DNA of 64,000 bases, from positions 5,513 to 69,512 of the IMG/VR virus record IMGVR_UViG_2933632641_000001; one strand, written 5' to 3'. The DNA comes from a virus (taxonomy: Duplodnaviria > Caudoviricetes). The notes under the pieces were generated by a model. That model was not told the DNA's origin, ran no database searches, and saw only the letters and a program-made list of their open reading frames with translations. Below are positions 1-19,007 of the stretch, in pieces; positions within the stretch are counted from its first letter, which is position 1, and every line of letters starts with the position of its first letter. The position numbers and the translations under genes are program-made.

Positions 1-1
1 C

Positions 2-238
2 ACCAACGACCTGCCTACCGTGCGTGCAGCGCGAGCTGCTGGCGCCCGCCGCACCCTCCCCGCCGCGCGACAAGCTCGCAGCGCCGCCCTCGAAGCCGCA
101 GTGCAGGCGGCCGGGTTCGAGTCGATGGCAGCAGCGATCGACTCGACGCGACACCTGTCGAACCGGGCGGCAGCGGCGCGGATTGGCGTTGGCCCGAGCA
201 CCGTCAAGCGGTGGCGGCAGCGCGCACTGTCAGGTTGA
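2..238 (+). CDS. HTH DNA-binding protein, probably 5'-truncated by the window edge
   Basis: Frame is open to the left edge; C-terminal SNRAAAARIGVGPSTVKRWRQR is a helix-turn-helix. Confidence 0.55.
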   Translation, partial: TNDLPTVRAARAAGARRTLPAARQARSAALEAAVQAAGFESMAAAIDSTRHLSNRAAAARIGVGPSTVKRWRQRALSG

Positions 239-265
239 CCGGTAGCCGTATGGCGGCAGGGGCCC

Positions 266-302
266 GGAAACGAGAAGAGCCCCCACTTCGGAGGGTGGGG
301 GC
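266..302 (-). terminator. Intrinsic terminator closing the mini-array transcript
   Basis: Stem GCCCCCAC (279-286)/GTGGGGGC (295-302), followed on the minus strand by TCTTCTCGTTTCC. Confidence 0.7.
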
Positions 303-388
303 CGAACCCCCGCATCGGCGGGGAATCATCACTGCGTCCAGGACGCACGGGGCGTCTTATGGAACACCCCCGCATCGGCGGGGAGGCG
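301..388 (-). CRISPR. Type I-E-like mini-array: two repeats, one 31-32 nt spacer
   Basis: Identical 19-mer ACCCCCGCATCGGCGGGGA at 306-324 and 366-384 (period 60). On the minus strand repeat 1 reads CGCCT-CCCCGC-CGAT-GCGGGG-GTGTTCC, the I-E hairpin plus handle layout. Confidence 0.75.
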
Positions 389-391
389 CCC

Positions 392-400
392 ATCATGACA
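392..400 (-). promoter_or_regulatory. Candidate extended -10 promoter of the mini-array
   Basis: Minus strand TGT-CATGAT about 7 nt upstream of the first repeat hairpin. Confidence 0.45.
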
Positions 401-616
401 CGGCCGGAACATGTCGCGAGGGTGAACCTCGGAACGCGTGTCCGACCGGCCGTCCGGACCAGTACGAGGAGCCGGGCGAACTCTGAGCACGCGACGACCC
501 TCCCGTGGGGAGGCCGGGAGGGGCGCCGGCCCGGGATAGTCAGGTCCGGTGGCAGAACCGTAGACCCGCAGGCCCGGGTGACGATAGGCATATGACAGCG
601 GGATTTTCGGAGACGC

Positions 617-650
617 GAAGAGCCCCCACCCCTGCCGGGTGGGGGCTTTC
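617..650. terminator. Bidirectional terminator-like hairpin
   Basis: AGCCCCCACCC (621-631)/GGGTGGGGGCT (637-647) with flanking AAG/TTTC, downstream of ORF 683-940. Confidence 0.7.
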
Positions 651-682
651 GGTGGCCTGCGGCGCCGACAGGCGTCGGGCAG

Positions 683-940
683 TTAGAGAGGCTCGGACGG
701 GTCGATCAAGGCTGCTGCGACCTCCGGCCACGCTGCGCCATTGAGGGCGCCCTTGTGGGTTCGGATCCGATGAGCCAAGCGCACGGCAATGTCCCGCTCA
801 TGCAGATCGAGCATCAGCGTCACGGCCGCATGCACGGCTGGCGGTACTCCGGTCTCCTTGAACGCCACCGTGGCCATCTCGTAGAGGTTCTCGCGCGCAG
901 TCGGCATCATGCCCTCCAGGCTTCGGGTCGAGTAGCGCAT
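683..940 (-). CDS. Hypothetical protein (85 aa)
   Basis: ATG with AAGGGAAG RBS, follows the HTH gene, ends before a terminator. Confidence 0.65.
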   Translation of the reverse strand: MRYSTRSLEGMMPTARENLYEMATVAFKETGVPPAVHAAVTLMLDLHERDIAVRLAHRIRTHKGALNGAAWPEVAAALIDPSEPL

Positions 941-952
941 AACGTTCTTCCC

Positions 953-1252
953 TTAAGCGCCAGGATTTGGCGCCTCTTCCGGCGCTTCGGTGGCCGCCCG
1001 CCGACCAGTCGTCCGACCTTCGGCGATCTGCTGTGCGCGGGCGCGACTGGTCCCGATCACCTTGCCTACTTCGGCGTGACTCAGGCCGTCGGCCCGCAAC
1101 TCCAGTACGGCATCCTGCCGCAACTGCCGCAGCCACTTCTGTAGCTCGGGAACGGCGTTGAGTGCGGCCCCGACCTCCTTGGCGCGCTCGCCAGGGTCCT
1201 CGTTGTCCGCTAGATGCTTTAGGGCCTCGAAGGGCGCCGGGGGCGTCGTCAT
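953..1252 (-). CDS. HTH transcriptional regulator, likely leaderless
   Basis: GLSHAEVGKVIGTSRARAQQI HTH; TACGCT -10 box 7 nt upstream of the ATG. Confidence 0.8.
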   Translation of the reverse strand: MTTPPAPFEALKHLADNEDPGERAKEVGAALNAVPELQKWLRQLRQDAVLELRADGLSHAEVGKVIGTSRARAQQIAEGRTTGRRAATEAPEEAPNPGA

Positions 1253-1259
1253 GGAATGA

Positions 1260-1304
1260 AGCGTAAGGGGTAGGGTTGCACATGTAAGGGCTACCCCCTA
1301 CGCT
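1260..1304. promoter_or_regulatory. Divergent promoters with inverted-repeat operator
   Basis: TTGCAC (1276-1281)-17 bp-TACGCT (1299-1304) on plus; AGCGTAAGGGGTAG (1260-1273)/CTACCCCCTACGCT (1291-1304) is a 13/14 inverted repeat containing both -10 boxes. Confidence 0.7.
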
Positions 1305-1337
1305 AAAGGTGTCGAGATACCCACCAAGGGAGTTCAG

Positions 1338-1919
1338 ATGCCTCGCCCGATCAGCTGGCCGACCCGGGAAGAGTGGCAGGCGAAAGCCGAGCAGTCCGAG
1401 CGCACCAGCTGCTTCGCTCGCGAACGAGTCAGCTCCGACCCGGCCGAGTGGCTGGGGACAGACCAGATCGCCGAAGGGCGAGTAGCCGCGGCCAAGCTCG
1501 TCCGTGCCACACGGATTGCGCTCGGCAAGGCCGGCCTTGCTGGAGAGCGCTCCAGCCTCAATCAGTGGTACCGGGACGCGGCCGACGAGGGCGCCACTGT
1601 CGACGACCTCGCCTCCGGCTGGTTCCACGTAACGCGCTATGCCCGCATGGTCCAGGTCATGCCGGAAGCTGCCGACCGACTGGCCGTTCTTGGCGAGGCC
1701 CTGCGTACTGCGCGGGACGCGGCGGCGGAGGCAGTCGAGGAAAAGGCCGTGGCCACGGCCGTGGCCACGCGAGCCAGCGACGAGGGGTGGGCGAAGGAGC
1801 TGGAGCGCCGGGCCCGGGTTGAGCGTGGCCCTCAGGTCACCACCATCACGGTCCACCAGGACGGCAGCAGCACCGTCAGCGCACCGGTCCCGTTCCAGCC
1901 CCCGTGGCCCAGCTACTAA
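1338..1919 (+). CDS. Hypothetical helical protein (193 aa)
   Basis: AAGGGAG RBS, first gene after the promoter, coupled to the methyltransferase gene. Confidence 0.75.
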   Translation: MPRPISWPTREEWQAKAEQSERTSCFARERVSSDPAEWLGTDQIAEGRVAAAKLVRATRIALGKAGLAGERSSLNQWYRDAADEGATVDDLASGWFHVTRYARMVQVMPEAADRLAVLGEALRTARDAAAEAVEEKAVATAVATRASDEGWAKELERRARVERGPQVTTITVHQDGSSTVSAPVPFQPPWPSY

Positions 1920-1922
1920 GGA

Positions 1923-2936
1923 GTGATGGTGAGGGTTCCCGCTGACGTTCTCGAAGCCCTAGCCCAGGCCCACACCGACGGAGCTCGCCTCGTGCTCACG
2001 GGCCCACGCATGAACCCGCCGCTGTACCAGCGTGTGAACGAGGTCCTCGAAGCCGTGGGCGGGCACTGGACCAAGTCGGCCGAGGCGCACCTGTTTCCCG
2101 CTGACGCCGCCTGCGCGATAGCCCCCGTCCTCGCCTCCGGGCAGGTCGTGACGCTAAGGGAGAAGCGGCAGGACGCCCAGTACTTCCCGACCCCGGCGGC
2201 CGTCGTGAAGCGTCTAGTTGAGCTGGCCGCCGTCGCGCCGGGCATGCACGTACTGGAGCCTTCGGCCGGCTCGGGCGCAGTCGCGTCCGCAGCGGCTGCG
2301 GCCGGTGCTGTGGTCGACTGTATCGAGCGCGACCCTGGATACGCAGCCGCACTCACCGAGGCCGGGACCGCTCGCACTATCCGAGTCGCCGACTTCCTCA
2401 CCGCCACCCCGGAACCACTCTATGACCGAGTCCTGATGAACCCGCCCTTCACCAAGGGCGCCGACATGGCCCACGTCCAACACGCACTCCGGTTCCTCAA
2501 GCCGACCGGCCTGCTCGTGGCAGTCATGTCGTGCGCGGTGACTCACGATTCCCGCGGCACGGCCGAGTTCCGGGCCCTCGTGGAGCAGAGGGGCGGTGCA
2601 GTCGAAGCGGTACCCGAGAAGGCGTTCGCCTCGTCCGGCACCAACGTCGACACCGTCATCGTCACCATCCCCGCCACCCGACCGACCGATGCTCAGCCCG
2701 CCGTCTGGCCAACCCGTGAAGTGCCAGAACAGGCGATGGCGGAGTTCCGCGATCCCGCAGAGATTGCCCGGGAAATCGCAGACAGTCTCTGCGAGGCGAT
2801 GCAGCTCATGGACAAGGTCGCGCGTGATCTCGCAAAGCCGAACCGCATCGCCACCCCCGTCAGGCCCGTCGCCGATCTGCCTCTGTGGTCAGGCGGCGAG
2901 CAACTCGCCTTCATTGACCTAGGAGAAGCCTCGTGA
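1923..2936 (+). CDS. SAM-dependent amino (N6-adenine-type) DNA methyltransferase
   Basis: QYFPTP, VLEPSAGSG (motif I), DFL and MNPPF (motif IV). Confidence 0.85.
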   Translation: MMVRVPADVLEALAQAHTDGARLVLTGPRMNPPLYQRVNEVLEAVGGHWTKSAEAHLFPADAACAIAPVLASGQVVTLREKRQDAQYFPTPAAVVKRLVELAAVAPGMHVLEPSAGSGAVASAAAAAGAVVDCIERDPGYAAALTEAGTARTIRVADFLTATPEPLYDRVLMNPPFTKGADMAHVQHALRFLKPTGLLVAVMSCAVTHDSRGTAEFRALVEQRGGAVEAVPEKAFASSGTNVDTVIVTIPATRPTDAQPAVWPTREVPEQAMAEFRDPAEIAREIADSLCEAMQLMDKVARDLAKPNRIATPVRPVADLPLWSGGEQLAFIDLGEAS

Positions 2937-3160
2937 CCAGGGAAGGAAGCATCGTGCCCGATCTTTACATCGGCCAGCGAGTGGGAACCATCACAGATGC
3001 GCCCGCCGCATGGCCTGGCGCCTTCTCGGCGCCTGCGGGAAGCATAGGCACCATCGTTGGGGGGATCGACGCATTCGGCTGCTTTGGGGTAGTCCTGGAT
3101 GGCGACCCTGACGCCCTGCCCGCCTCCTATCACCCCGATGAACTGCGTGCCCGCCCGTGA
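2933..3160 (+). CDS. Small hypothetical protein
   Basis: GTGA overlap with the methyltransferase gene, AGGAG RBS. Confidence 0.6.
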   Translation: MTREGSIVPDLYIGQRVGTITDAPAAWPGAFSAPAGSIGTIVGGIDAFGCFGVVLDGDPDALPASYHPDELRARP

Positions 3161-3284
3161 CCAGACTCCCCACATCCCATGCCGGGCAGCCCCTCGCGCT
3201 GCCCGGCTCGGACCTGTTCGAGACGGTCCGCCGTAAGCTCATCGACGACCTCGGCCCCACCCGCGCGGGTGGGGCCTTGTCGTG

Positions 3285-4334
3285 CTAGGCGCGGGTGTCT
3301 CGCGGCAGGAGGGGATTGTTGCGTCGCTTGTCTGCTGGGCGAACGTAGGCGAGCACCTGGGTGGAGTTCTTGCTCCACCTTCCGTGCTCTGCAATGAACG
3401 GCACCGGCACGCCTCTCTCAGCAGCGTCCGTTGGGCCTCCCGCGCGAAGTCCGTGTGCGGTCGTCCGCTCCGCATCCGTCAGGTTCGCAGCCTTGGCCAG
3501 CTTCTTAACGATCTCTCCAACAGCGGCAGCGGATAGACCCTTGCCTACTGCACCCCGCGAGTGGATGGCCCGGAGTAGCGGTCCGCTCGTGATGCCGAAC
3601 TCCGCCAGCCCTTCGACGTAGGAGGTCACGATGCGACCGGCGTCGATGTCCGGGGCGAGGGCTCGCGGAACATCGACGTCCTCGCCTTTGGCATTGGTGT
3701 CGGTCTTGGACATGGGGATGAAGACGCTGACCCAGTCCTCGGAGACCGTGAGCTGGCTGAGCTGGATGGCGGCGAGTTCGGACCGGCGGCCCATTAGCCC
3801 GTAGCCGAGCACGAGAATTGCAGCGTCCCTGCGACCGCTGAGCGAGTTCCGATCGCACTGCGCCAGGAGTAGGCGCAAGACGTCGAGGGTGACAGCCTTC
3901 GCGCGGCGCGGTCGCCAGCCGGCCTTGGCACGGTCCTGGCGGTGGACCTTGATGAGCTCTCGTGCGGCACGGGTGCCTGGCTGTCCCTCGAAGCCTGCAC
4001 GGAAGTGGGCAGTGCGGATCGCAGAGAGGGCTTGGTCGAGGCTGTTGGGCGAGTAGGGCTGGCCGGTTGTGGCGGAGGTGGACCGCATCAGGTGCCCGAT
4101 GAATTCGGCGACGGTCTGGCTGGTCATGGGAAGCGGGGTGCGCTGCTCGACCTCGCACCAGGCGAGCGCCATCTTCCACCAACGCTTGTACGCACGGTCG
4201 GTGTTGTCGGCGATGGAGCGGTTGAGGTCGGCGATGGTCTCGCCTGAGAGGTGTTCGTCGTTGGTGCGCGGTGCGGGCAGGTCGGTGACGATCTCGGCAA
4301 CGTGTACCGGTTCGAGCTCACTCCCCACGTTCAT
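3285..4334 (-). CDS. Cre/TnpS-like tyrosine recombinase
   Basis: N-terminal NTDRAY SAM-like domain; catalytic residues R (GRRSEL), K (SKTD), HxxR (HGLR), W (HGRW), Y (AYVR); AAAGGAGG RBS. Confidence 0.9.
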   Translation of the reverse strand: MNVGSELEPVHVAEIVTDLPAPRTNDEHLSGETIADLNRSIADNTDRAYKRWWKMALAWCEVEQRTPLPMTSQTVAEFIGHLMRSTSATTGQPYSPNSLDQALSAIRTAHFRAGFEGQPGTRAARELIKVHRQDRAKAGWRPRRAKAVTLDVLRLLLAQCDRNSLSGRRDAAILVLGYGLMGRRSELAAIQLSQLTVSEDWVSVFIPMSKTDTNAKGEDVDVPRALAPDIDAGRIVTSYVEGLAEFGITSGPLLRAIHSRGAVGKGLSAAAVGEIVKKLAKAANLTDAERTTAHGLRAGGPTDAAERGVPVPFIAEHGRWSKNSTQVLAYVRPADKRRNNPLLPRDTRA

Positions 4335-4374
4335 CCTCCTTTGAGGCGGTATGTGACTAGAACTAGCGTACCGC

Positions 4375-4404
4375 TCAAGGGCCTTGATACGTGGGAGTTA
4401 TCGC
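4375..4404. promoter_or_regulatory. Candidate recombination (res/lox-like) site
   Basis: GATAC-7 bp-TTATC imperfect inverted repeat (4386-4402) overlapping palindrome TCAAGGGCCTTGA, directly upstream of the recombinase. Confidence 0.4.
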
Positions 4405-4434
4405 GACTCAGCCCCCGCCAGGGCACAGCACAAC

Positions 4435-4458
4435 GCCCCCGCCCAGAAGGGCGGGGGC
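4435..4458 (-). terminator. Terminator of the late operon
   Basis: GCCCCCGCCC-AGAA-GGGCGGGGGC right after the last lysis-region gene. Confidence 0.7.
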
Positions 4459-4464
4459 TGCTGG

Positions 4465-4848
4465 CTACAGGTAGCGGACAGCCGCCACGTTGATGATCAG
4501 GTGGATGGTGTTGTCTGCAATGATCATTAGCCAGACCGCCAGCCACGGTGGCGTCTCGCTGGGGTATCCCGTCGCGGAGCACTCCGACCACGGGCGCCAG
4601 TGGCTACGAGGAGCCAGGAAGTTCTTCGCCCAGACGACATGCCGGGCGAGCCGGTAGTGGTCGATGACGGCGTGCGTGCCGACGATGACCGCGAGGGCTG
4701 CTGGCGACTGGGTGACGAGCAGGAACGGGAGTCCGTAGGTGAGCGCGTGCGCCCAGGCAGGCCACCAGCGCTTCGTCTTCTCGTTCGCCATCCAATGCGA
4801 CTGGATGAGGTAGTCGCCGACCAGGTGAGCCAACAGGGTGCCGATCAT
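4465..4848 (-). CDS. DUF3307-like membrane protein
   Basis: LLAHLVGDYLIQ...HA...H..IDH...DNTIH motifs; start moved to the coupled ATG at 4848. Confidence 0.8.
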   Translation of the reverse strand: MIGTLLAHLVGDYLIQSHWMANEKTKRWWPAWAHALTYGLPFLLVTQSPAALAVIVGTHAVIDHYRLARHVVWAKNFLAPRSHWRPWSECSATGYPSETPPWLAVWLMIIADNTIHLIINVAAVRYL

Positions 4849-5210
4849 CAGACTCCAGTTCGGTTGTACTCGGTGATCCTCTCCGGGGGCGCGGGCGGCT
4901 CGATGCCTGCCTGACTCATCTGCGTGGTGAGGTCCCCGACGTAGAAGACAAAGGCTCTGACGAGCGACCGAAGGGACCGCACTTCTTCGCGAGTCTCGGC
5001 GAGGTCTTGCCGCTGCTTCTCGCGGATCTCCTTGAACGCTTCGAGGTCTGCGGTCCGCTGGGCTGGCTCGCTCTGTACGACGGCCGCCACCTCCGTGGCC
5101 CGCGCCGACGCCGCTGCCGCCGCCCGCGACGACCGCGCCGTGAACACAACACCGAGCAGTGTCAGCACCGCGCCGCTGACCGTCGCTACCGCAGCCCACA
5201 CGTCGCTCAT
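4848..5210 (-). CDS. Lysis-cassette membrane protein (TM plus coiled coil)
   Basis: N-terminal hydrophobic helix then heptads; downstream of the holin. Confidence 0.75.
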   Translation of the reverse strand: MSDVWAAVATVSGAVLTLLGVVFTARSSRAAAAASARATEVAAVVQSEPAQRTADLEAFKEIREKQRQDLAETREEVRSLRSLVRAFVFYVGDLTTQMSQAGIEPPAPPERITEYNRTGV

Positions 5211-5629
5211 CCGCCCTCAGCTCTCCGGCCGCGCGGAAGCTTGGGCACGGAGTGCTCGGGCACCGTCGCGGCCCACAGGATCACCCCCACGTGGGAGGTG
5301 AGGTACCAGATCGCGACCCATGTGCCGCGGGGGTAATCGCCACCTATGGCGGCGGCGAGGTATGCGATCGCCCACACTGACGGCGGCACCAGTGCGGCGG
5401 CGAATCCGTATCGATCGCGTCCCACCTTGAGGAACGCGCTGGTGAACGTGACGACCCCTGCGGCGATCCAGATCCACGCCCAATGGCACAGGCCGGGCGT
5501 GGGCGGCAGCAGGGGCGGGTGCACGTAGAAGGAGATCCCCCAGCAGGTCTTACCGACGCCGAGGATGGCGAGGAACGTGCCGCGGCGGCCCAGCATGCGG
5601 TGGAGCCGCCGGGCTGCACGGCACCTCAC
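5207..5629 (-). CDS. Multi-pass membrane protein of the lysis cassette
   Basis: About four hydrophobic segments; start/stop overlaps with neighbours. Confidence 0.75.
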   Translation of the reverse strand: MRCRAARRLHRMLGRRGTFLAILGVGKTCWGISFYVHPPLLPPTPGLCHWAWIWIAAGVVTFTSAFLKVGRDRYGFAAALVPPSVWAIAYLAAAIGGDYPRGTWVAIWYLTSHVGVILWAATVPEHSVPKLPRGRRAEGG

Positions 5630-6010
5630 CTACACGCCTGTGAGCGGGGCGGGCTTGACGAGGCTCGACCGCTCGAGGGCCGTGCTGGATACGGGCGCGG
5701 TGATCTGCGTCCGCTCCCACAGGGCCAGCGCCGCGGCGATAGCGGCCATGACGTAGGCCTGCCTGTCGGCGGACCAGTGCAGGCCAAGGCCGACGAAGAG
5801 GGACATGACAGCCTGCGCGAGCTGCATGAGAGCGGCGGCCCAGGCTCCGTCCCGAGCCATGACGGCGAGGATGAGGCCGACGATCGAGGCTGCCACCACG
5901 TTGATGGCGGTCTGGGTGCCGGCGCTCACGTCGAACTGGTAGCCGAGGAGCTTCACCAGTGCGGCGACGAAGCCCAAGATGAGAGCCGGTTCACGGCCGA
6001 AGATCTTCAT
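5630..6010 (-). CDS. Holin-like membrane protein
   Basis: MKIFGREPALIL N-terminus, multiple TM helices, RTQITAP tail; follows the endolysin. Confidence 0.75.
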   Translation of the reverse strand: MKIFGREPALILGFVAALVKLLGYQFDVSAGTQTAINVVAASIVGLILAVMARDGAWAAALMQLAQAVMSLFVGLGLHWSADRQAYVMAAIAAALALWERTQITAPVSSTALERSSLVKPAPLTGV

Positions 6011-6062
6011 GGTGGTCCGTTTCTGGGTGGGGTGAATGGCGAGGTACGGGGGTCGGTACGGG

Positions 6063-6923
6063 TCAGGCGCCTGACGGCTTCGCGACGACGGAGACCTCGA
6101 CCTTGAGCGTGCCGTCCACGAGGGCCTGCTTGATCTCCTCCGGGGTGAGGGCAGCCGCGTGGATCGCATTGATCGTCTGGACCTGGAAGACGTCCTGCCA
6201 GACGAGCCACCAATACGCAGCCTTGGACGTACCCGCGCGGGATCCGTCCGCGTTCAGGTTCGGCAACTGGTAGTTCCAGACGGCCGCCGCGACGGCCTGA
6301 ATGTCCTCGGGGGTCACGATGTCCTCCTGGGGGTTGGGTGAGGCGAAGCTGCGAGCCCAGGCGCGGAGCTCGGCCGTGCTGTTGAGCGGGCAGAAGTCCG
6401 TATCGATCGGACTATCCGTGTACTGGTGGAACATCCACGAGGCCTTGATGCCGGGGTCCCCGGCCTTGCGTCCCGCGGTGGCGATCCACAGGAAGTCACC
6501 GCAGTAGCCGCCCTGGTCGACGTTGCGCCAGTAGTCGGTGTTGCAGTACATGCCGACGGGGTTGCGCGGGAGCTTCGCCTTGACGTAGCGGAGCCACTGT
6601 TCCTTGTAGGCGAGCTGCCTTGCCTTACTGACGCCCGCGTTGGCCTCGTCGTAGCCCTCCCAGTCGAGGATGACGACGTCGCCGGGCTGCCAGGCCACCT
6701 GATTGAGGAAGTAGTCGGCTTCGGCTTTGGCGTCGTTGCCCATGTGGGGGTAGTGGTAGGCGCCCCAGACCAGCCCGTTTGCCTTGGCGTGGTTCCGCTG
6801 GCTGACCCACTTGGGGTTGATGTAGCTCAGGCCTTCGGTGATCTTGACGAAGGCGAAGGACAGGCCAGCCGTGCTGGGTGTGCTGCTCTGGTAGGAGGCC
6901 CAGTCCTGTCCGAGGATGCCCAT
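6063..6923 (-). CDS. Endolysin, GH25 muramidase
   Basis: GQDWASYQ, FAFVKITEG, GAYHY, LDWE and HQY motifs; start at MGILGQD. Confidence 0.9.
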   Translation of the reverse strand: MGILGQDWASYQSSTPSTAGLSFAFVKITEGLSYINPKWVSQRNHAKANGLVWGAYHYPHMGNDAKAEADYFLNQVAWQPGDVVILDWEGYDEANAGVSKARQLAYKEQWLRYVKAKLPRNPVGMYCNTDYWRNVDQGGYCGDFLWIATAGRKAGDPGIKASWMFHQYTDSPIDTDFCPLNSTAELRAWARSFASPNPQEDIVTPEDIQAVAAAVWNYQLPNLNADGSRAGTSKAAYWWLVWQDVFQVQTINAIHAAALTPEEIKQALVDGTLKVEVSVVAKPSGA

Positions 6924-6930
6924 CTGGGCC

Positions 6931-7746
6931 TCACTTTCTGGTGCGTATGGCCTGCCAGGCGCTGCCAAGCCGGCAGCGCTTCGGTGACGGCCGTTCGTGG
7001 ATGGTCCAGGTCGGGATCGTGACGTCGCCCTGTTGGGAGAGGAGCCACGCCAGGTCATCAGCGGTCAGGTAGCCGGACCCGTCGTGGCCCCACGACGACC
7101 CCCACGAGTTGGTGATCCAGTACTCGCCAGTGCCGTCGTACCGGTTCAGCTCGACCTCGTGGCCGCCGGCGACGCCGGAGGAGCGGTCGACAGTGATCCG
7201 ACCGTCCGCCGCAGGTTCGTACATGCTGTTCAGCCACGGAATCCCGATCATCACGGGCCCGGACTGCAGGGCGCTGGTGAGAGCCGCGAGCGCGAATGCA
7301 TGGCTGTAGCTGCTGGCCAGACCGAGTGCTTTCAGGGCCTTTGCGACGCCAAGGCCCGACGAGCCGGTGTCGGCGGGAGGGTACTGGCCGGGCACCGCGT
7401 CGAGGACCGTGGCCAGGGAGTACAGGGCGACCGCGAACGCCTCGTCGAGGGCGTGGTCTCCGGCTGTGAACCTGCCGTGCGAGGCGGCAGCCGCGGCCGG
7501 GGTGACGGTGACAGACGTTCGACCTTGCCGGACAGCCGAGTCCGTGCCGAGGAGGCCAACGCCGGCGTTGCCCGTGCACGCGCCGAGCTGTCCCTGGTCG
7601 AGAACGGGTATCCGCCGGGTCCAGGCCACCGGCGTGATGGCGGCCTTGGGGAGGACCCCGTGCGCGAAACCCAAGGACCGGGGATCGTGCTCAATGTGCC
7701 GCCCGAGCTGTGAGGCCTGGGCCGGCAGTAGTTCGATGTGGGTCAT
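6931..7746 (-). CDS. Papain-like (C1) cysteine peptidase
   Basis: DQGQLGAC (Gln/Cys), GGHEV (His), ITNSWG (Asn). Confidence 0.85.
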
Positions 7747-7791
7747 GCACCCTCCAGGGCAGCGCGAGCCGGGTCGGGCTCGGGGTGGGGG

Positions 7792-8082
7792 TTACCAGCC
7801 GGGCGGTAGGCGTTTCTTCGGCTTGGCGGGGTCGCCGGGGAAATCCGGCACGGGTTCCTGTTCCGGAGTGCAGTCGCAGGCGGCAGTCTTACCGGGGCCC
7901 GTGCATGAGGCCTGGTGGGTGAGTGCGGCCGCGGCGGGGGTGAGGGCGTGGTCGGCGCACGCGTAGACCGGAATGAACGCGGAGGTGTCGGGCGCACGCT
8001 CGACGAGGCGGCTCGCTTCGTCGGGGAAGGGGCGCCGCTTCCACTGGACAACGGCGGCCTGGCCGCACTTGCAGGTGATCAC
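7792..8082 (-). CDS. Small Cys/His-rich hypothetical protein
   Basis: GTGA overlap with the upstream gene; CKC, CADH, C...CDC. Confidence 0.6.
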   Translation of the reverse strand: MITCKCGQAAVVQWKRRPFPDEASRLVERAPDTSAFIPVYACADHALTPAAAALTHQASCTGPGKTAACDCTPEQEPVPDFPGDPAKPKKRLPPGW

Positions 8083-8609
8083 GCGTGCTCCCAGATGACG
8101 TACATCATGCTCGCGGCCTCGTTCGCGAAGGCCGTCGAGAGGGCGGCGCCGCAATTTTGGCCGCCCGCGATCTCGACGTAGTCGCCGACAGCCAACTGGA
8201 GCAGGTGGGAGACCTCGACGATGCCGTTCAGGGTGCCCGCGCCGAGGAGGTTGGCGGCGCCTTGGATGAACGCCCCATTGACGTGAACGCGGGCACCCCG
8301 CGAGCCAGTGCCGTTAGTGGCAAACGCGGCCCGGCCACCGACCCGATACCAGCCGGCCACTTGACACGTATATCGCGAGGTGTTGGAGACGGTGGAATGC
8401 CCTCCGTAAGTGTCGATGATCTCGCTGTCGAAGGTCAGCACCGCCCAAGTTCCATTCGCCACGGACTGCACGACTTGCTGCTGCCCGATGAAGAACGGCG
8501 CGTTGGCGAGGAACGTGAGTCCGTTGTAGACGTTCGCATTCCATAGAGCGCCGGTGATGTACTGCCCGGGCACGACCTGGGCGGGGGTGGGTGCCGCGAG
8601 TCCCGGCAT
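8079..8609 (-). CDS. Minor tail protein with C1q/TNF-like domain
   Basis: LTFDSEIIDTYGGH...RYTCQVAGWY...LQLAVGDYVEI pattern; GGAGG RBS. Confidence 0.75.
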   Translation of the reverse strand: MPGLAAPTPAQVVPGQYITGALWNANVYNGLTFLANAPFFIGQQQVVQSVANGTWAVLTFDSEIIDTYGGHSTVSNTSRYTCQVAGWYRVGGRAAFATNGTGSRGARVHVNGAFIQGAANLLGAGTLNGIVEVSHLLQLAVGDYVEIAGGQNCGAALSTAFANEAASMMYVIWEHA

Positions 8610-8622
8610 GAGGCCTCCAGAG

Positions 8623-11600
8623 TCAGTAGGCGAAGGCGGTGGAATCGAATTTCGTCCCGGCGTCCCACGTTGCGGGGTCGGTCGTCCCGGCCGGGAGCGG
8701 CTCGCAGATCAGGTCTCCGGCGGCGTGCGCCTTCGTTGTCGCCGCGGTCAGCGTGATCGTCGCCGACGCCCATCCGGCCGTGGTCGTGCCGACCGCGGAG
8801 ACGGTGACGGTTTCCTGATTCGCCGTGTTCTGCCCGAGGACGATCTGCTGCCCGGCCCCGAGCTGCGCGGCCAGCGGGTTGGTGGTATCGGCGGAGGCGT
8901 TGACGACGATGCTGGTCACCCCGGACGCCACGCTTGTATTCAGTGTGGTGTGCCATGCGGCAAAAAGGCCGTAGGGGGTGAGATCGACGGGGCTGCACTG
9001 GAGCATGGCGAAGGCTTCACCACGGTCGTCTGTTTGCCAGTTGATGGATTCGACGAATGCGTCGATCTGGATGGCAGGGCTGTTGGGTGGCCTTCTGATG
9101 ACCCGTACTCGGCTTCCTAGCTCCAGCGAGAGCAAGACCGGCCATAGGGCGGGCTGGGCAGAAGGGTGCAGCTTGAGCGTGTTGATTCTCGAGACGGGCT
9201 GCCTGTACCGGGACAGCAGGTAGTTGGCCGCATCCTGGCATTCGGCGGCCGAAGAGGTGTTGATGGTCCGGGACAGGGGGCGCGGGAAATACGCTGCGAT
9301 CGAAGCCTGATCCTGGGCAGCGAAGACCTGCCCCGTGGCCTTCTGGGTCACCTTGACCGTGTTGGACAGGCGTGTCGGATCGAAATCGAGCTTGCAGTCC
9401 TCGTAGGGGTACTCGCCTAGATCGGCACGCTCACCAAAAATGTATTGAGGAGTCAGCGCGTTGTAGCGGGACGACCGCGCTCGGAAGGTGACCGTTCCGG
9501 CCGCGTCAACGTAATGGGCACCTCCTTCCGTATCCACGACGCCCTGCAGAGCAGAGAGAGCATCTTGGCCACCGAAGTCCGCAGCCCCCATGGACGTTGT
9601 CAGTCCCGTCTGAACCGACTTGGGGCCAGTCCAGCCTGCGTAGGCGAGTATGCGGGCGTAACGGCTGCTGGTCGATTCGCCGGTGAACGCGCTCTTCCAG
9701 GCTTGGTAAAGGCCTGTGATTTTCGCTGAAGAAACCCACTTGGTGAACTCGCCCGCGAATGCGATATCTCCCTGAAAGTTGACGGTTGTTCCGTCCCCCA
9801 CCGTTGCGTCGACGAATCCGCCGAGGTTGTCGCTGATGAGCCCTGTCGGTGCATGGGTAGAGGGGATGGAACCGTAGTAGGAGGCTGTCGCCCCGTCTTG
9901 CGAAAAGAGCACCTGGGCAGTGGCCTGATTGTACCCGAAGAGCAGAAAATGCCAGTTCCCGTCCATGCAGTTGGTCGCACCGCCGGCCGTGTATACGTTG
10001 CCGAAACCTGCGGGGCCGAACAGGACCAACGTGGGTTTTCCTGTCACGTCTAGGCACAAATACAGGCGGGAGCCGGTTGCACCGGCTGCCGTGCGCTGGT
10101 TATCCATGCACGACCAGAGATACGCGGCCGAGACGATGGTCGGTCCCGTATACCGGAAGGCGAGGAAACGAACGAACATGGTCGGATCTGCCGGGCCCTT
10201 GATGCCGGCGGCGCCTAGCTTGAGGAAGGTCGCTGGGGCAGCCAGGGCCTCGCCTGGATACGGGTTGGCGATACTGACGACCGTGCCCGAGCTGCCCGTG
10301 TAGCCGCCGTTGGCGCTATTTGAGGCGATCTGATTGCCGAAAGTCAGAGAGCCTGGCCCATATTTCGAGTTGGCGACCGTGGCTTGAGGATAGTTCCCTG
10401 TGGCATCACTTGCTCCGTCTGATCCCTGAGGGTCGTCCAGCTTGTACAGAAATCTCGGACTGTTGATGTTGATCTCTTGGGTGAGGGGATCAGATAGGCC
10501 TACCTGCGAGAGCAGGGCAAAAGCATCGACGCAGTTTGGGGACACAGTCCCGTACACGCCATCCTTCCAACTGGATGGCCACCGCTCCACGAACCCCGAG
10601 AACATGGGATACCAGACGCCCGGTTGCACCCAGGCGGTCGCCGCAGTGCCGCGCTCTAGCTGCCAGCCGTCGACCTGGACGCTGCATGTGGCGGCGGCTG
10701 CGGCGGCCACCATGACGCCGGCGTTGATCCCCGCTGCGTTGGGCGGTGCGGTGGCGGTCACGGTGATCAGCGTCCAGGCGGCCGTAGCCGATCCCGTCAG
10801 CGTCACCGTGCTGCCATAGGTGAAATTTGCTGCCGTCCCTCCCACTGTGGCGTCGTACCAGCCGATGCCAGCCTTGACTTGCAGTGAGGTGGAAGCGGTT
10901 ACGTTTCGGACCCGCATCTGCATCGTGTACGTCTGGCCTGGAAGTACGGCGGCCTGCAGGGTGTGGCAAATCCGAGTGGGCGCGGCGCTTCCGGACGGCA
11001 CGGAGAATGCCAGCACGGTGGCGCCCTGCCATGCCGTGCTGGAGGCAGTGACAGCGCCGGTGCCACTCGGATCCGTATTGCTGGAGATATTCGCGGAGAA
11101 CACCGTAGAGCCGACGGCGTACCCGCCCAGATCACCACCGCTCGCCATGATCTGCGAGAGAAGATTGACAGTCTCGGGCCACTGGGCCCTTTTGCGGTAC
11201 GGCTGGTAAGGCGCGATGCGGCCTGCGAAAGGGCTCGTCGCATTGGTGGGGTCGAGGACACCGTCGCTGTTCGCCAGTGCGGTCGACAGTTCACCAGTGC
11301 GGACCTGGTCGAGCTCGTACTGCCGTCCCCGCTGGATGCTGCTTGAACCCATGGTGCGCTGTGTGACGTCGACCAACCGGTCCGCCGGTGAGGGGGTGGC
11401 CGCGGTCCAGAAGGCTCCCCAGCCGTCCTCGATCAGCGGCCAGTTCGGATTGTTGGGCCCGCCCATCCGGGTGTTGATGCAGCTGATCGAGGCGGTGAGG
11501 CCGGCGACCTCGGTCGCCCCGGCCGAGGTCTGGAACGCGAACGTCATGGCGGTCGCGGATGCGGCCCAGCTGTAGGCGCTGCTGGTCTGCGTGGTCCAAG

Positions 11601-12042
11601 TGATGCCGTCAATGGAGGTGTCGGCGTACCAGGTGCCTGCGGATTCCCGGAGCTGCCACCAGCGGTGATTGTGGCCGTCGTAGGAGCCGAGCATCGTCGT
11701 GGTGGTGACGCCTGCCGTCTGCAGGGTGAATTCGAGGATGCCGGACTCAACCCTGATAGCGACGGAGTTGTTGGCGTCGACCCGCAAAACGAGGGCGGTC
11801 TTGGTGTTGCCATTACCGGTCGCGACGGCCGTGACCAGGGCGTAGACGCTGCTGCTGGTGGCGTCGTACAAGTTCGTGGAACCGAAGGAGTTGGTGGCGC
11901 CGCTGGTCGTGGGCTGGGCGAGGGTGACCATGTCGACGGTGGTGTCGAGCGTGGCGGTTCCAGTGATCGAATTCCACAAGCTCGTATTGAGGGCGCCTGC
12001 CATGAACGCCTCGACGAGGGTCGAGATCTTGGGGTTGGGCAC
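8623..12042 (-). CDS. Large minor tail (tip) protein with carbohydrate-binding/LamG-like domains
   Basis: Follows the tape measure gene; RGRQYELD, VDGWQLERG, FSGFVERWP, YKLDD motifs; GTG start with GGGAGG RBS. Confidence 0.8.
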   Translation of the reverse strand: MPNPKISTLVEAFMAGALNTSLWNSITGTATLDTTVDMVTLAQPTTSGATNSFGSTNLYDATSSSVYALVTAVATGNGNTKTALVLRVDANNSVAIRVESGILEFTLQTAGVTTTTMLGSYDGHNHRWWQLRESAGTWYADTSIDGITWTTQTSSAYSWAASATAMTFAFQTSAGATEVAGLTASISCINTRMGGPNNPNWPLIEDGWGAFWTAATPSPADRLVDVTQRTMGSSSIQRGRQYELDQVRTGELSTALANSDGVLDPTNATSPFAGRIAPYQPYRKRAQWPETVNLLSQIMASGGDLGGYAVGSTVFSANISSNTDPSGTGAVTASSTAWQGATVLAFSVPSGSAAPTRICHTLQAAVLPGQTYTMQMRVRNVTASTSLQVKAGIGWYDATVGGTAANFTYGSTVTLTGSATAAWTLITVTATAPPNAAGINAGVMVAAAAAATCSVQVDGWQLERGTAATAWVQPGVWYPMFSGFVERWPSSWKDGVYGTVSPNCVDAFALLSQVGLSDPLTQEININSPRFLYKLDDPQGSDGASDATGNYPQATVANSKYGPGSLTFGNQIASNSANGGYTGSSGTVVSIANPYPGEALAAPATFLKLGAAGIKGPADPTMFVRFLAFRYTGPTIVSAAYLWSCMDNQRTAAGATGSRLYLCLDVTGKPTLVLFGPAGFGNVYTAGGATNCMDGNWHFLLFGYNQATAQVLFSQDGATASYYGSIPSTHAPTGLISDNLGGFVDATVGDGTTVNFQGDIAFAGEFTKWVSSAKITGLYQAWKSAFTGESTSSRYARILAYAGWTGPKSVQTGLTTSMGAADFGGQDALSALQGVVDTEGGAHYVDAAGTVTFRARSSRYNALTPQYIFGERADLGEYPYEDCKLDFDPTRLSNTVKVTQKATGQVFAAQDQASIAAYFPRPLSRTINTSSAAECQDAANYLLSRYRQPVSRINTLKLHPSAQPALWPVLLSLELGSRVRVIRRPPNSPAIQIDAFVESINWQTDDRGEAFAMLQCSPVDLTPYGLFAAWHTTLNTSVASGVTSIVVNASADTTNPLAAQLGAGQQIVLGQNTANQETVTVSAVGTTTAGWASATITLTAATTKAHAAGDLICEPLPAGTTDPATWDAGTKFDSTAFAY

Positions 12043-12090
12043 GGCGCCTCCCAAGGAGTGAGGCGCCGTGTGGCGCATGAACGGACAACG

Positions 12091-14820: not shown

Positions 14821-14843
14821 CTCTCATCGTCAGCGGTGGTGGT

Positions 14844-15296
14844 TCAGAGGCGGGGCCAGCCGACGCGGTAGATACTCACGTACAGCTGCGGGGCCACGAT
14901 CGTGATCCCGAACTGGTAGGCAGGCTTGAGGAACGGGTAGGTGACGCCGTTGCGCAGGCCCGTCTCGAGGGCGAGTCCGTACCTGCTGGCCGGCGTGCGG
15001 CCGTAGGGCGGGGAGATCCCCGCCCCCGTGCCGACTTTCGTCTCCCAGCCGGTCCCGGTAAGCGTGACCGGGCTGTGGGTGATGGAACGGCGCAGAGTGC
15101 CGGAGATGACCGCAGGCCCGGTTCCCGGGCTGGCAGGTGTGGGCGTTCCCCTCCGGTGCGCCCCTGATGAGGCGTTGACCTTGGCCTGCTTCTCGATGGC
15201 GTTGGCCAGCTGAGTCAGGAACGTCCTCGATTTCAGCTGGCCGTCGGCGGAGATCTCGGCGAAGAGGCGGGTGAAGAGGCCGGCGCGGAGTTCCAT
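14844..15296 (-). CDS. HK97 gp10-like tail component
   Basis: SGTLRRSI...YGLALETG...YPFLKPA motif. Confidence 0.7.
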   Translation of the reverse strand: MELRAGLFTRLFAEISADGQLKSRTFLTQLANAIEKQAKVNASSGAHRRGTPTPASPGTGPAVISGTLRRSITHSPVTLTGTGWETKVGTGAGISPPYGRTPASRYGLALETGLRNGVTYPFLKPAYQFGITIVAPQLYVSIYRVGWPRL

Positions 15297-15297
15297 G

Positions 15298-15567
15298 TCA
15301 GCCTCCCGCCCGGTCTGCCTTGGCCTGGGCCCGCTCGTTTTCTCGCCGTTCCCGCTCGGCGATCATGCTGAGGGTGTCGAGGCAGTACCGTCGCACATAC
15401 AGCGGCGTGGCCTGCAGCTGCTCCCATGACCAGTGCATGCGGCGCATCAGGATGAAGTCGGCCCATTCGGCCGGGGCGTCGTTGCTGCCCCATGTCCCCT
15501 CGATGATCGATTCGATCGGGAGGAGGACGTCCTCGTAGTACGGGGAGCCGGGGCCTACTGAGGGTCC
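15298..15567 (-). CDS. Tail assembly chaperone extension (T segment, -1 frame)
   Basis: -1 frame stays open across the stop of the upstream chaperone; MHWSWEQLQATP motif. Confidence 0.7.
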   Translation of the reverse strand, partial: GPSVGPGSPYYEDVLLPIESIIEGTWGSNDAPAEWADFILMRRMHWSWEQLQATPLYVRRYCLDTLSMIAERERRENERAQAKADRAGG

Positions 15568-15959
15568 GCGACCCGGCCGAGCTCCTCCCCGATCCGGTTG
15601 ATGATCCGCAGCGGCATCCGGGCGATGTTGTCGATCGTGATGGGGCCGAGCCGGGGCTGGGCGTCGGGGGACGCGTTCAGCGACTCGTACAGGGCGACCG
15701 GGTCCGCGTCCTCTGTCAGTTCGGGGGCCGCCGCGGATCCGTCGTATACCTTCCAGGCGACGATGACGCGGGCGAAGACCTCGTACATCGCGTTCTGGGC
15801 TTCCTGCTGGTCCAGGGGCTGCCCGCGCTCGTCGAGAGGCACATCCTTGGGAGTGACCTCTGCCGGCGCCAGGAGCTGGGGGTTGCGGATGAGGACGGAC
15901 ACGTCTTCGCCGAGCTCGGGGAACTGGAGCAGGACGTAGGGGGTGCTGTAGCCAGCCAT
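15555..15959 (-). CDS. Tail assembly chaperone (G)
   Basis: Between major tail and tape measure genes; AGGAG RBS; ends GCG GAC CCT CAG TAG. Confidence 0.8.
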   Translation of the reverse strand: MAGYSTPYVLLQFPELGEDVSVLIRNPQLLAPAEVTPKDVPLDERGQPLDQQEAQNAMYEVFARVIVAWKVYDGSAAAPELTEDADPVALYESLNASPDAQPRLGPITIDNIARMPLRIINRIGEELGRVADPQ

Positions 15960-15975
15960 GGTGATTCTCCTGTGC

Positions 15976-16040
15976 TGAGGGCGTCGAGGGCGTCAGACCC
16001 CGGCCGTGCCGTGACGCCCTCACGTGCGGCACGGCCGGGG
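15976..16040 (-). promoter_or_regulatory. Hairpin/pseudoknot between major tail and chaperone genes
   Basis: 14-bp stem 15998-16011/16027-16040; loop is complementary to tandem GAGGGCGTC at 15977-15994. Confidence 0.6.
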
Positions 16041-16050
16041 AGTCCGGGGA

Positions 16051-17202: not shown

Positions 17203-17414
17203 TGCGGCTCACCTCCCTCGTCGTCGGTGGTCTTCTTGCCTCGGGCCTTCGTTGCGGCGGGTAGTTCGTTGACGGGCGTCCAGCCGTCGAGGAGCTGCGG
17301 ATAGTCGGCGGTGTCGCCCGGCTCGACGCTGTAGGGCGGCTGCTCGGGCTGGTCGTCGGTGGCGGGCGTCGCGGCGAAATGCCACACGCTGCCGCTGTCG
17401 TTGCGCTGGCGCAC
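17199..17414 (-). CDS. Small virion-associated hypothetical protein
   Basis: GGGAGAG RBS; GTGA overlap with the tail tube gene. Confidence 0.65.
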   Translation of the reverse strand: MRQRNDSGSVWHFAATPATDDQPEQPPYSVEPGDTADYPQLLDGWTPVNELPAATKARGKKTTDDEGGEPQ

Positions 17415-17479
17415 AGGGCTCTCCCGATGTCGGGGCGTGGGAAAGCCCCCGGCCAGACGGTCCGGGGGCAGGGGCGGGT

Positions 17480-17971: not shown

Positions 17972-17981
17972 CTGCGCCCCC

Positions 17982-18650: not shown

Positions 18651-18653
18651 GGC

Positions 18654-18947: not shown

Positions 18948-19007
18948 CGGGCTCCTCCTTCAGTGGTTAGCGGGTGCGCCGACGTGAGCCGACGCACCTG
19001 GAGGGGA

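What the first reader, a model, noticed from the sequence alone, without database searches (positions are those of the whole stretch)
266..400. Stand-alone single-guide type I-E crRNA cassette on a phage, with no cas genes in the window
Seen (minus strand): TGT-CATGAT -10 box; repeat CGCCT-CCCCGC-CGAT-GCGGGG-GTGTTCC; spacer ATAAGACGCCCCGTGCGTCCTGGACGCAGTGA; repeat TGATT-CCCCGC-CGAT-GCGGGG-GTTCGGC; then a terminator. A second terminator at 617-650 insulates it from upstream genes. Known: CCCCGC-N4-GCGGGG is the Cas6e hairpin of type I-E repeats and cleavage leaves an 8-nt 5' handle; mobile elements are known to carry mini-arrays and repeat-derived RNA anti-CRISPRs. The degeneracy is informative: repeat 1 keeps the handle and repeat 2 loses it, which are the parts kept and discarded in one mature crRNA. 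Inference: the phage loads one guide into host Cascade, to attack a competing element, to repress a host cas or defence promoter, or to act as a decoy. The period is 60 nt, one shorter than the usual 61.
Basis: partly seen in the sequence, partly recalled or inferred. Interest (0 to 1): 0.88.

Follow-up and report, generated by a model that had tools for sequence, protein, structure and literature searches.

The report
Prophage-borne single-guide CRISPR mini-array
An integrated Streptomyces phage with no cas genes carries a tiny self-contained gene for one type I-E CRISPR guide RNA that could only work with the host's CRISPR proteins; phages are already known to do this, so it is a clean new example and not a new principle.

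Summary
On the minus strand, window 388-300 holds repeat, 31-nt spacer, repeat, with two identical 19-nt hairpin cores exactly 60 nt apart. A -10-like box lies 8 nt upstream and an intrinsic terminator 4 nt downstream.

Repeat 1 matches the commonest Streptomyces type I-E repeat (GTCCTCCCCGCCGATGCGGGGGTGTTCCG) at 26 of 29 positions, including 7 of 8 handle bases. Repeat 2 matches at 20 of 29 and keeps little beyond the hairpin. Arrays with this repeat lie beside CasE and cas3 in Streptomyces. The 69.5-kb provirus record has no CasE, Cas7 or Cse1.

The cassette sits in a 2.9-kb variable module beside an integrase-bearing prophage. That module is missing from a related prophage at the same chromosomal site.

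I found no target in phages, plasmids, IMG/VR, metagenomes, 401 Streptomyces genomes or three host cas loci. I also found no host regulatory-RNA twin.

Three traits lean towards a Cascade-hijacking, regulatory or anti-defence RNA (Cracr-like): handle base 8 is A (6 of 367 array repeats), the spacer is palindromic, and repeat 2 is degenerate. The two closest cassettes, L206 and L211, conserve only the first 19 spacer bases. A conventional anti-competitor guide remains a strong rival.

This scan has reported similar cas-less type I-E arrays on other Streptomyces-type phage DNA. Verdict: new member of a known kind, function unproven.

The parts
392..400 (-). Promoter-like box: TGT followed by CATGAT (extended -10 type), 8 nt upstream of hairpin 1
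   Evidence: Read directly. A similar GTG(C/T)CAT(A/G)(G/A)TGG motif precedes the cas-less arrays in viral contigs L006, L007 and L010. Not scored by the E. coli-type scan, so it is an inference.
360..388 (-). Repeat 1: 5-nt flank CGCCT, hairpin 383-368, 8-nt handle GTGTTCCA 367-360
   Evidence: 26 of 29 identical to the commonest host repeat. That 29-mer accounts for 46 of the 178 matches examined.
329..359 (-). Spacer, 31 nt, holding a 7+1+7 palindrome (window 333-347)
   Evidence: Unique in the window at up to 3 mismatches. Palindrome seen. Arms of 7 bp or more occur in 8 of 472 host spacers.
300..328 (-). Repeat 2 (degenerate): flank TGATT, hairpin 323-308, non-consensus 3' part 307-300 that overlaps the terminator stem
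   Evidence: 20 of 29 identical to the host repeat. The hairpin core is identical to that of repeat 1.
268..303 (-). Intrinsic terminator: 9-bp GC-rich stem 303-278, then CTTCTCGTTT
   Evidence: the only terminator-like site in 150-750.
308..367 (-). Predicted mature crRNA (60 nt) if Cas6e cuts at the 3' base of each hairpin
   Evidence: Inference from the known type I-E processing rule (recalled) applied to the anatomy. Not tested.
487..631 (-). Context: conserved non-coding element 'E' between the upstream hairpin (621-647) and the cassette
   Evidence: 72-86% identical copies in 34 of 401 Streptomyces genomes. No Rfam family. 0 of 20 predicted pairs covary.
1..238 (+). Context: 3' end of the convergent 248-aa ROS/MucR zinc-finger plus HTH gene
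   Evidence: Pfam PF05443, E 5e-11. An 82%-identical homologue lies on viral contig L141, which has no cassette.
3285..4334 (-). Context: tyrosine integrase of the prophage
   Evidence: Pfam PF00589, E 3.5e-9. A GH25 lysin lies at 6063-7058.

Best explanation
This is a self-contained, cas-less, single-guide type I-E mini-CRISPR in a variable accessory module of a Streptomyces prophage.

Proposed steps, all inferred from anatomy:
1. A transcript of about 118 nt starts a few bases upstream of hairpin 1 and ends at the terminator.
2. Host Cas6e cuts after each hairpin. This releases a 60-nt crRNA (window 367 to 308): the 8-nt handle from repeat 1, the 31-nt spacer, and the 3' hairpin from repeat 2.
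3. Host Cascade assembles on that RNA.

I favour a crRNA-like hijacker role, of the viral Cracr / host CreR kind. In that role the RNA takes Cascade away from immune crRNAs and steers it to a partly matching site, probably palindromic and regulatory. Cascade would bind that site without cutting.

The target is unknown.
For: Repeat identity and host link:
- Repeat 1 matches the host consensus at 26 of 29, handle 7 of 8.
- The same repeat forms arrays flanking CasE in G001. It also lies beside annotated cas3 on plasmid NZ_CP108001.1.

Fit to what one mature crRNA needs:
- The handle is kept only in repeat 1 and the hairpin is kept in both.
- The unit is tightly packed: -10 box 8 nt before repeat 1, terminator 4 nt after hairpin 2.
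- No cas genes in the record.

Traits atypical of adaptation-derived units:
- Handle base 8 is A. In arrays it is G in 355 and A in 6 of 367 repeats.
- A is also found in the host mini-array beside cas3 in L173, in the viral single-guide cassettes L206 and L211, and in L009.
- The spacer palindrome is matched by only 8 of 472 host spacers.

Relatives:
- L206 and L211 have the same architecture. Their spacers share the first 19 nt and then diverge, as expected when only the PAM-proximal part is selected.
- Other viral contigs carry arrays of this repeat family with short conserved spacers.
- Liu et al. describe viral I-E Cracr arrays, with Actinomycetota among the phyla of the targeted bacteria.
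- A host array spacer (L070) matches a gene of this phage at 27 of 32. Type I-E systems with a variant of this repeat therefore target its kin.
Against: - No RNA evidence of any kind.
- The real host's CRISPR-Cas content is unknown.
- No unit with the same handle plus seed in IMG/VR: 19 pattern hits, none repeat-like.
- None in 401 Streptomycetaceae genomes: 6 hits, none repeat-like.
- No seed or partial match in three host I-E loci. The best was 18 of 26 scored positions, with seed runs of 6 or fewer.
- The spacer is full length. That suits cleavage-type interference just as well.
- Only this one record carries this spacer, so conservation cannot be tested.
- The A at handle base 8 and the palindrome are each only about 1-in-60 oddities.
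Confidence: 0.45

Rival explanations
1. It is a conventional virus-borne mini-CRISPR array. The lysogen uses host Cascade and Cas3 with this one full-length guide to destroy a competing phage or plasmid, which is heterotypic superinfection exclusion.
For: - It fits the published class: viruses and prophages with 1-2 spacers, no cas genes, and repeats like the host's (passages of PMC7099407; PMC6858448 seen as listing only).
- The spacer is full length. 31 nt lies within the natural range: 11 of 538 spacers.
- It sits among prophage accessory genes near the integrase.
- The spacer is unique, as expected for a fast-changing weapon.
Against: - No protospacer in 50,697 phage records, PLSDB plasmids, or IMG/VR.
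- The JGI metagenome hits are 11 low-GC stretches with 6-7 mismatches of 31 and no AAG-type PAM.
- None in 401 Streptomyces genomes, including the related prophage of G214.
- Handle base 8 is A. The base left by canonical acquisition is G in 355 of 367 array repeats.
Confidence: 0.3
2. It is a decaying, functionless scrap: the last two units of a host array picked up by recombination into the mobile element.
For: - Repeat 2 is degenerate, like many terminal repeats.
- The cassette is absent from the two relatives examined.
- The surrounding 2.9-kb module is a patchwork with partial copies of element E.
Against: - Both 19-nt hairpin cores are still identical.
- The decay spares exactly the parts one crRNA needs.
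- The promoter-like box and the terminator abut the unit.
- Independent cassettes of the same build exist in L206 and L211.
Confidence: 0.12
3. It is a pure repeat decoy (Racr-like). The hairpins only soak up Cas6e or form dead-end subcomplexes, and the spacer is irrelevant.
For: Two perfect Cas6e-type hairpins on a cas-less phage element. Racrs against type I-E systems are proven in Pseudomonas (PMC10651486 passages).
Against: - Racrs are solitary repeat units. By that paper's own finder rule, a partial repeat match within 100 bp of a solitary full match that is at least 90% identical to it is called a mini-array. I did not compute this for repeats 1 and 2.
- A decoy need not keep 7 of 8 handle bases or the natural 60-nt period.
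Confidence: 0.08
4. It is unrelated to CRISPR: a small structured RNA or tandem terminator hairpins that resemble a repeat by chance.
For: The 18-nt hairpin alone occurs singly in many unrelated genomes. Only 25 of 120 loci have the GTGTTCC handle.
Against: The hairpin, the 7-nt handle, the T before the stem and a second copy at the array period together match Streptomyces arrays far beyond chance.
Confidence: 0.03

Closest known systems
Virus-borne mini-CRISPR arrays (Faure et al. 2019 as cited in PMC7099407; Medvedeva et al. 2019, PMC6858448)
   Same: Carried by a prophage, no cas genes, one spacer between two host-type repeats. Presumed dependence on host Cas proteins.
   Different: Published cases are defined by spacers that hit related viruses. 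No target was found here. Handle base 8 and the palindromic spacer are atypical of acquired units.
Cracr RNAs and Cracr arrays (Liu et al., bioRxiv 10.1101/2024.10.29.618823, version of 2026-07-28)
   Same: A viral crRNA-like gene outside any cas locus, with a degenerate second repeat. Type I-E is included, and Actinomycetota is among the phyla of the targeted bacteria. The proposed action is the same: occupy Cascade and redirect it.
   Different: [quoted passage not shown] No such twin was found here. The spacer is 31 nt, against 24 nt for the tested Salmonella CracrIE1. Their candidate tables (supplements) could not be read.
Racr, RNA anti-CRISPRs (Camara-Wilpert et al. 2023, PMC10651486)
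   Same: Phage-encoded mimic of the host repeat. Type I-E examples have been validated.
   Different: Racrs are solitary repeats. This unit has two repeats, a full spacer and a conserved handle.
Host crRNA-like mini-arrays in cas loci (CreR/CreA; Shmakov et al., bioRxiv 10.1101/2023.03.03.530964, listing and abstract start only)
   Same: The host mini-array beside cas3 in L173 has the same build: handle GTGTTCCA, 32-nt spacer, degenerate second repeat.
   Different: That one lies inside a cas locus and its spacer is unrelated.
Single-guide cassettes on IMG/VR proviruses L206 and L211 (found here)
   Same: The -10 box lies directly before repeat 1. Handle GTGTTCCA, full-length spacing, degenerate repeat 2, then a terminator.
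   Different: Different hairpin loop and an unrelated spacer. Those two share their first 19 spacer bases with each other.

Membership tests
Type I-E CRISPR repeat-spacer unit | 29-nt repeat with a GC stem, 4-nt loop and conserved 8-nt 3' part (the crRNA 5' handle) | tested here: met
   Repeat 1 is 26 of 29 identical to the commonest host repeat, handle 7 of 8. Repeat 2 keeps the hairpin only, 20 of 29.
Type I-E CRISPR repeat-spacer unit | Repeat period of about 61 nt | tested here: met
   Period 60. Real arrays: 61 in 326, 60 in 16, 62 in 10 of 361 intervals.
Type I-E CRISPR repeat-spacer unit | The repeat family is linked to I-E cas genes in hosts | tested here: met
   CasE lies between two arrays in G001. 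Annotated cas3 lies beside an array on NZ_CP108001.1.
Type I-E CRISPR repeat-spacer unit | Processing by Cas6e and loading into Cascade | not testable with these tools
   No RNA run is listed. This needs small RNA-seq or a pull-down.
Viral mini-CRISPR array | On a virus or provirus, 1-2 spacers, no cas genes, repeats like the host's | tested here: met
   Integrase and lysin nearby. The cassette lies inside the inserted region relative to five genomes. No CasE, Cas7 or Cse1. Repeat match.
Viral mini-CRISPR array | Spacer targets a related virus or other mobile element | tested here: not met
   No credible protospacer. The databases are incomplete, so this is not proof of absence.
Cracr (viral crRNA-like anti-CRISPR RNA) | [quoted passage not shown] | tested here: inconclusive
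   Handle-plus-seed pattern: 19 IMG/VR hits and 6 hits in 401 genomes, none repeat-like.
Cracr (viral crRNA-like anti-CRISPR RNA) | Partial match to a cas or creT promoter of the host | tested here: inconclusive
   No seed match in three I-E loci from other Streptomyces. The true host's locus is not available.
Racr (solitary repeat unit) | A single repeat mimic without a spacer and second repeat | tested here: not met
   Two repeats 60 nt apart with a full spacer. The finder rule of that paper would class it as a mini-array only if the two repeats were at least 90% identical to each other, which I did not compute.

The most novel reading that the evidence does not exclude
The guide is not a copy of any host regulatory RNA. 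It is a phage-evolved, full-length guide whose palindromic spacer parks host Cascade on a palindromic operator outside the CRISPR locus. Candidates are the promoter of another defence system or the lysogeny switch of a rival phage. The prophage would thereby turn host Cascade into its own programmable repressor.
Probability: 0.15. Interest if true: 0.6.

Novelty: new member of a known kind. Interest (0 to 1): 0.36.

Why it matters
This is about as small as a CRISPR guide gene can be: promoter, repeat, one spacer, half-decayed repeat, terminator, in roughly 130 bp. That makes it easy to test by bench work.

Together with L206 and L211 it suggests a single-guide form of the cas-less type I-E mimics that seem common on Streptomyces mobile elements.

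The practical question is whether such full-length single guides cut competitors or merely park Cascade on a promoter. The answer would show how far phages reprogram host CRISPR beyond the published cases. It would also matter for phage resistance and CRISPR tool use in Streptomyces. The principle itself is already in print.

Tried and rejected
Spacer target searches (all negative):
- Second copy in the window at up to 3 mismatches: none.
- INPHARED phages: 2 records at E 5.
- PLSDB plasmids: 4 records at E 4.
- IMG/VR, pattern with every sixth base free: 0.
- 401 Streptomyces genomes at up to 3 mismatches: 0 of 401.
- JGI metagenomes: 11 stretches. All have 46-55% GC, the match ends after 23 nt, and none has an AAG-type PAM. 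Judged chance.
- Seed or partial matches in three host I-E loci and in the provirus itself: nothing above background.
- Palindrome search in the window: one 2-mismatch hit, as chance expects.

Host regulatory twin: handle-plus-seed pattern in IMG/VR and in 401 Streptomycetaceae genomes. No repeat-like hit.

Targets of the other viral spacers in the host loci I held: none.

Known RNA families: 7 weak Rfam matches in window 1-1500, all far below gathering score. No tRNA.

Relatives of the cassette:
- Megablast of window 1-6000 against phages: no match.
- blastn of the cassette against phages: no match.
- Against plasmids: 12 records. The two I opened are ordinary long arrays.
- The 85-aa neighbour has no relative in IMG/VR.

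Expression: no RNA holder is listed.

Host cas check: contigs of coded run X1, laid on the G001 cas operon at 80% likeness, gave only 20-37-nt scraps. This says nothing either way about the host's CRISPR.

The nearest genome, G214, has no CasE hit. It is only about 70-72% identical in the flank, so it is not the host.

A coding reading of the overlapping ORFs was rejected: there is no codon-position GC signal.

Element E as a structured RNA: 0 of 20 predicted pairs covary.

Supplementary tables of Liu et al. (the CreA/R and Cracr lists) are closed. They may already list this or related cassettes.

Full report
1. WHAT IS THERE

Read on the minus strand, the stretch runs as follows:
- TGT-CATGAT at 400-392.
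- Eight bases, then repeat 1 at 388-360. It consists of flank CGCCT, hairpin CCCCGC-CGAT-GCGGGG at 383-368, and handle GTGTTCCA at 367-360.
- A 31-nt spacer at 359-329.
- Repeat 2 at 328-300. It consists of flank TGATT, the same hairpin at 323-308, and then a non-consensus tail.
- A GC-rich stem at 303-278 with a T-rich tail.

Supporting checks:
- The two 19-nt cores are identical and 60 nt apart.
- The hairpin pattern occurs twice in 64 kb against 0.12 expected. None of 100 shuffles reached two.
- The terminator is the only one the scan reports in 150-750.
- The RNA folds as three hairpins plus the terminator: -69 kcal/mol, z = -2.25.
- There is no codon-position GC signal over 241-660, while the neighbouring genes show one. 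The overlapping ORFs are therefore not genes.

2. IT IS A TYPE I-E REPEAT OF STREPTOMYCES

- Among 178 matches in them, the commonest 29-mer is GTCCTCCCCGCCGATGCGGGGGTGTTCCG (46 matches). 60 matches carry the GTGTTCC handle, in 25 of the 120 loci.
- These sit in arrays of 61-nt period in Streptomyces and Streptacidiphilus records.
- Repeat 1 matches this consensus at 26 of 29 and repeat 2 at 20 of 29.
- In genome G001 two such arrays flank a CasE profile hit.
- On plasmid NZ_CP108001.1 a long array with a one-base variant of the loop lies beside annotated cas3.
- A 60-nt period is natural: 16 of 361 intervals.
- So is a 31-nt spacer: 11 of 538.

3. WHERE IT SITS

The window is part of a 69,512-bp IMG/VR provirus record, CheckV estimate 81%.
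- Pfam finds a tyrosine integrase (window 3285-4334), a GH25 lysin (6063-7058), a methyltransferase and HTH proteins. Convergent with the cassette is a ROS/MucR-plus-HTH gene.
- No CasE, Cas7 or Cse1 profile hit exists in the record.

The left 2.3 kb of the record (an XRE-type regulator ORF and a HAD-like hydrolase ORF, named from their translations and not checked against Pfam) is host DNA.
- It is found in 142 of 401 Streptomyces genomes.
- In five of them synteny stops at record position about 2295-2309.
- In the nearest genome, G214 (about 70-72% identity), synteny continues. G214 carries a related prophage at the same place.
- G214 lacks about 2.9 kb (record 3034-6003). That stretch holds a membrane-protein gene, two unknown genes, the MucR gene and the cassette.
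- A second relative of the MucR gene (L141, 82% identity) has a convergent gene of unknown family (not checked against Pfam) where the cassette would be.

The cassette is thus inside the mobile region, in a variable accessory module. It is not part of the conserved phage backbone.

4. AN OVERLOOKED NEIGHBOUR

A 145-nt non-coding element (631-487, minus strand) lies between the upstream hairpin (621-647) and the cassette.
- It is 72-86% identical to sequences in 34 of 401 Streptomyces genomes.
- It matches no Rfam family and shows no compensatory changes: 0 of 20 pairs.
- Partial copies flank the module.
- In most of the twelve loci printed it is followed by a long open frame on the opposite strand, which I read as a small convergent ORF. 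In the window only the last few codons of that ORF remain.

I see no terminator between this element and the cassette. The cassette may therefore also be read through from upstream.

5. TARGET SEARCHES

The spacer has no credible match in any collection I could search. It has no seed match in three host I-E loci or in the provirus.

[quoted passage not shown] A scan for 'hairpin end, 8 free bases, spacer seed' gave 19 IMG/VR hits and 6 hits in 401 Streptomycetaceae genomes. None has a repeat upstream. Membership in Cracr is therefore not shown.

6. WHAT THE RELATIVES SAY

IMG/VR holds other cas-less units of this repeat family.
- L006, L007, L008, L009, L010, L014, L017 and L020 carry 2-4 hairpins. 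In L006, L008, L009, L010 and L020 one of the spacers is short (period 43-44) and conserved between contigs.
- L006, L007 and L010 share a GTGCCATAGTGG -10 motif. In L006, L009 and L010 a TGTCAG box lies upstream of the -10 region.
- L206 and L211 are the closest in build. A -10 box sits nine bases before repeat 1. The handle is GTGTTCCA, the spacing is full length, repeat 2 is degenerate, and a terminator follows. Their spacers share the first 19 nt and then diverge. That pattern is expected if only the PAM-proximal part is under selection.
- A host mini-array beside cas3 in L173 has the same build and the same handle.

In real arrays, handle base 8 is G in 355, A in 6, T in 4 and C in 2 of 367 repeats. 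From memory, in E. coli type I-E this base comes from the PAM during acquisition. An A therefore argues that the unit was not made by ordinary adaptation. I did not check that point in a paper.

The spacer holds a 7+1+7 palindrome. Arms that long occur in 8 of 472 host spacers.

One host spacer (L070) matches an ORF in the late-gene (structural) region of this phage at 27 of 32. Type I-E systems with a variant of this repeat (same hairpin, different flank and handle) therefore do target its kin.

7. READING

Shown:
- A genuine type I-E repeat-spacer-repeat unit.
- It is compact and bounded by a terminator.
- It lies on a cas-less integrated element.
- It decays in exactly the parts that one crRNA does not need.

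Inferred:
- Transcription from the -10 box.
- Cas6e cuts that yield a 60-nt crRNA (367 to 308).
- Loading into host Cascade.

The conserved handle argues against a mere Cas6e decoy.

Between the two remaining uses, I put the binding-type, Cascade-hijacking role (Cracr or CreR-like) at 0.45. The reasons are handle base 8, the degenerate second repeat, the palindrome and the L206/L211 pattern. I put the conventional anti-competitor guide at 0.30. That reading is equally compatible with the full-length spacer and the prophage setting. A dead remnant gets 0.12, a pure decoy 0.08 and a chance look-alike 0.03.

8. COMPARISON WITH WHAT IS KNOWN

- Virus-borne mini-arrays with one or two spacers, no cas genes and host-type repeats are described (passages of PMC7099407; PMC6858448 by listing).
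- RNA anti-CRISPRs made of solitary repeats are described, with type I-E examples (PMC10651486 passages).
- Viral crRNA-like regulators (Cracr), including type I-E arrays and with Actinomycetota among the phyla of the targeted bacteria, are described in a preprint (outline, passages and section 7). 'Streptomyces' does not occur in its main text.
- Earlier notes of this scan report eight similar cas-less type I-E arrays on other Streptomyces-type phage DNA, seven of them judged closest to Cracr arrays and one closest to Racr. I took these as leads only.

This case differs by being a single unit with a full-length spacer and no identifiable twin. It is a new member of a known kind.

Noticed in passing
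window 487-631 (minus strand); partial copies at window 265-302 and G000 4393-4473: A 145-nt non-coding element with invariant blocks (GTCATATGCCTA, a C-rich-loop hairpin). It is 72-86% identical in 34 of 401 Streptomyces genomes, and in most of the twelve loci printed it lies next to a small convergent ORF. It matches no Rfam family and shows no covariation. It could be an attachment or recombination site, or a sequence-constrained RNA.
   Followed up: partly
L006, L007, L008, L009, L010, L014, L017, L020, L210 (IMG/VR contigs): Cas-less arrays of 2-4 type I-E hairpins of mixed repeat variants. In L006, L008, L009, L010 and L020 one spacer is short (period 43-44) and conserved between contigs. 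L006, L007, L010 and L210 share a GCCATAGTGG -10 motif, and a TGTCAG box lies upstream in L006, L009, L010 and L210. They look like the published Cracr arrays. No target was found in three host loci.
   Followed up: partly
L206 982-1058 and L211 (minus strand, about 1990-2130): Two proviral single-guide cassettes with the same build and the same GTGTTCCA handle as the window's. Their spacers are identical for the first 19 nt and unrelated afterwards. L211 neighbours include DUF2637 and HTH genes.
   Followed up: partly
L173 18659-18735 (Streptomyces mexicanus record, minus strand): A host mini-array convergent with the 3' end of a 998-aa ORF read as cas3 (by size and position; no profile run). 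Repeat 1 has handle GTGTTCCA, the spacer is 32 nt, and repeat 2 has a degenerate handle. It is a candidate host crRNA-like regulator.
   Followed up: no
window 20284-20315: A spacer from an array in L070, whose repeat has the same hairpin but a different flank and handle, matches an ORF in the late-gene (structural) region of this phage at 27 of 32 positions. The bases before the match are ACC.
   Followed up: partly
G214:C13 (L180), colinear with G000 1-20000: A related prophage sits at the same chromosomal site in another species but lacks the 2.9-kb module that holds the cassette. That genome shows no CasE hit.
   Followed up: partly
L141 1735-2310: In a related viral contig, the position after the MucR-like gene is taken by a convergent gene that I read by eye as phospholipase-D-like. 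No Pfam search was run on it.
   Followed up: no
If it is right, the record may be a composite of a phage and an integrative conjugative element. I did not check it.
   Followed up: no
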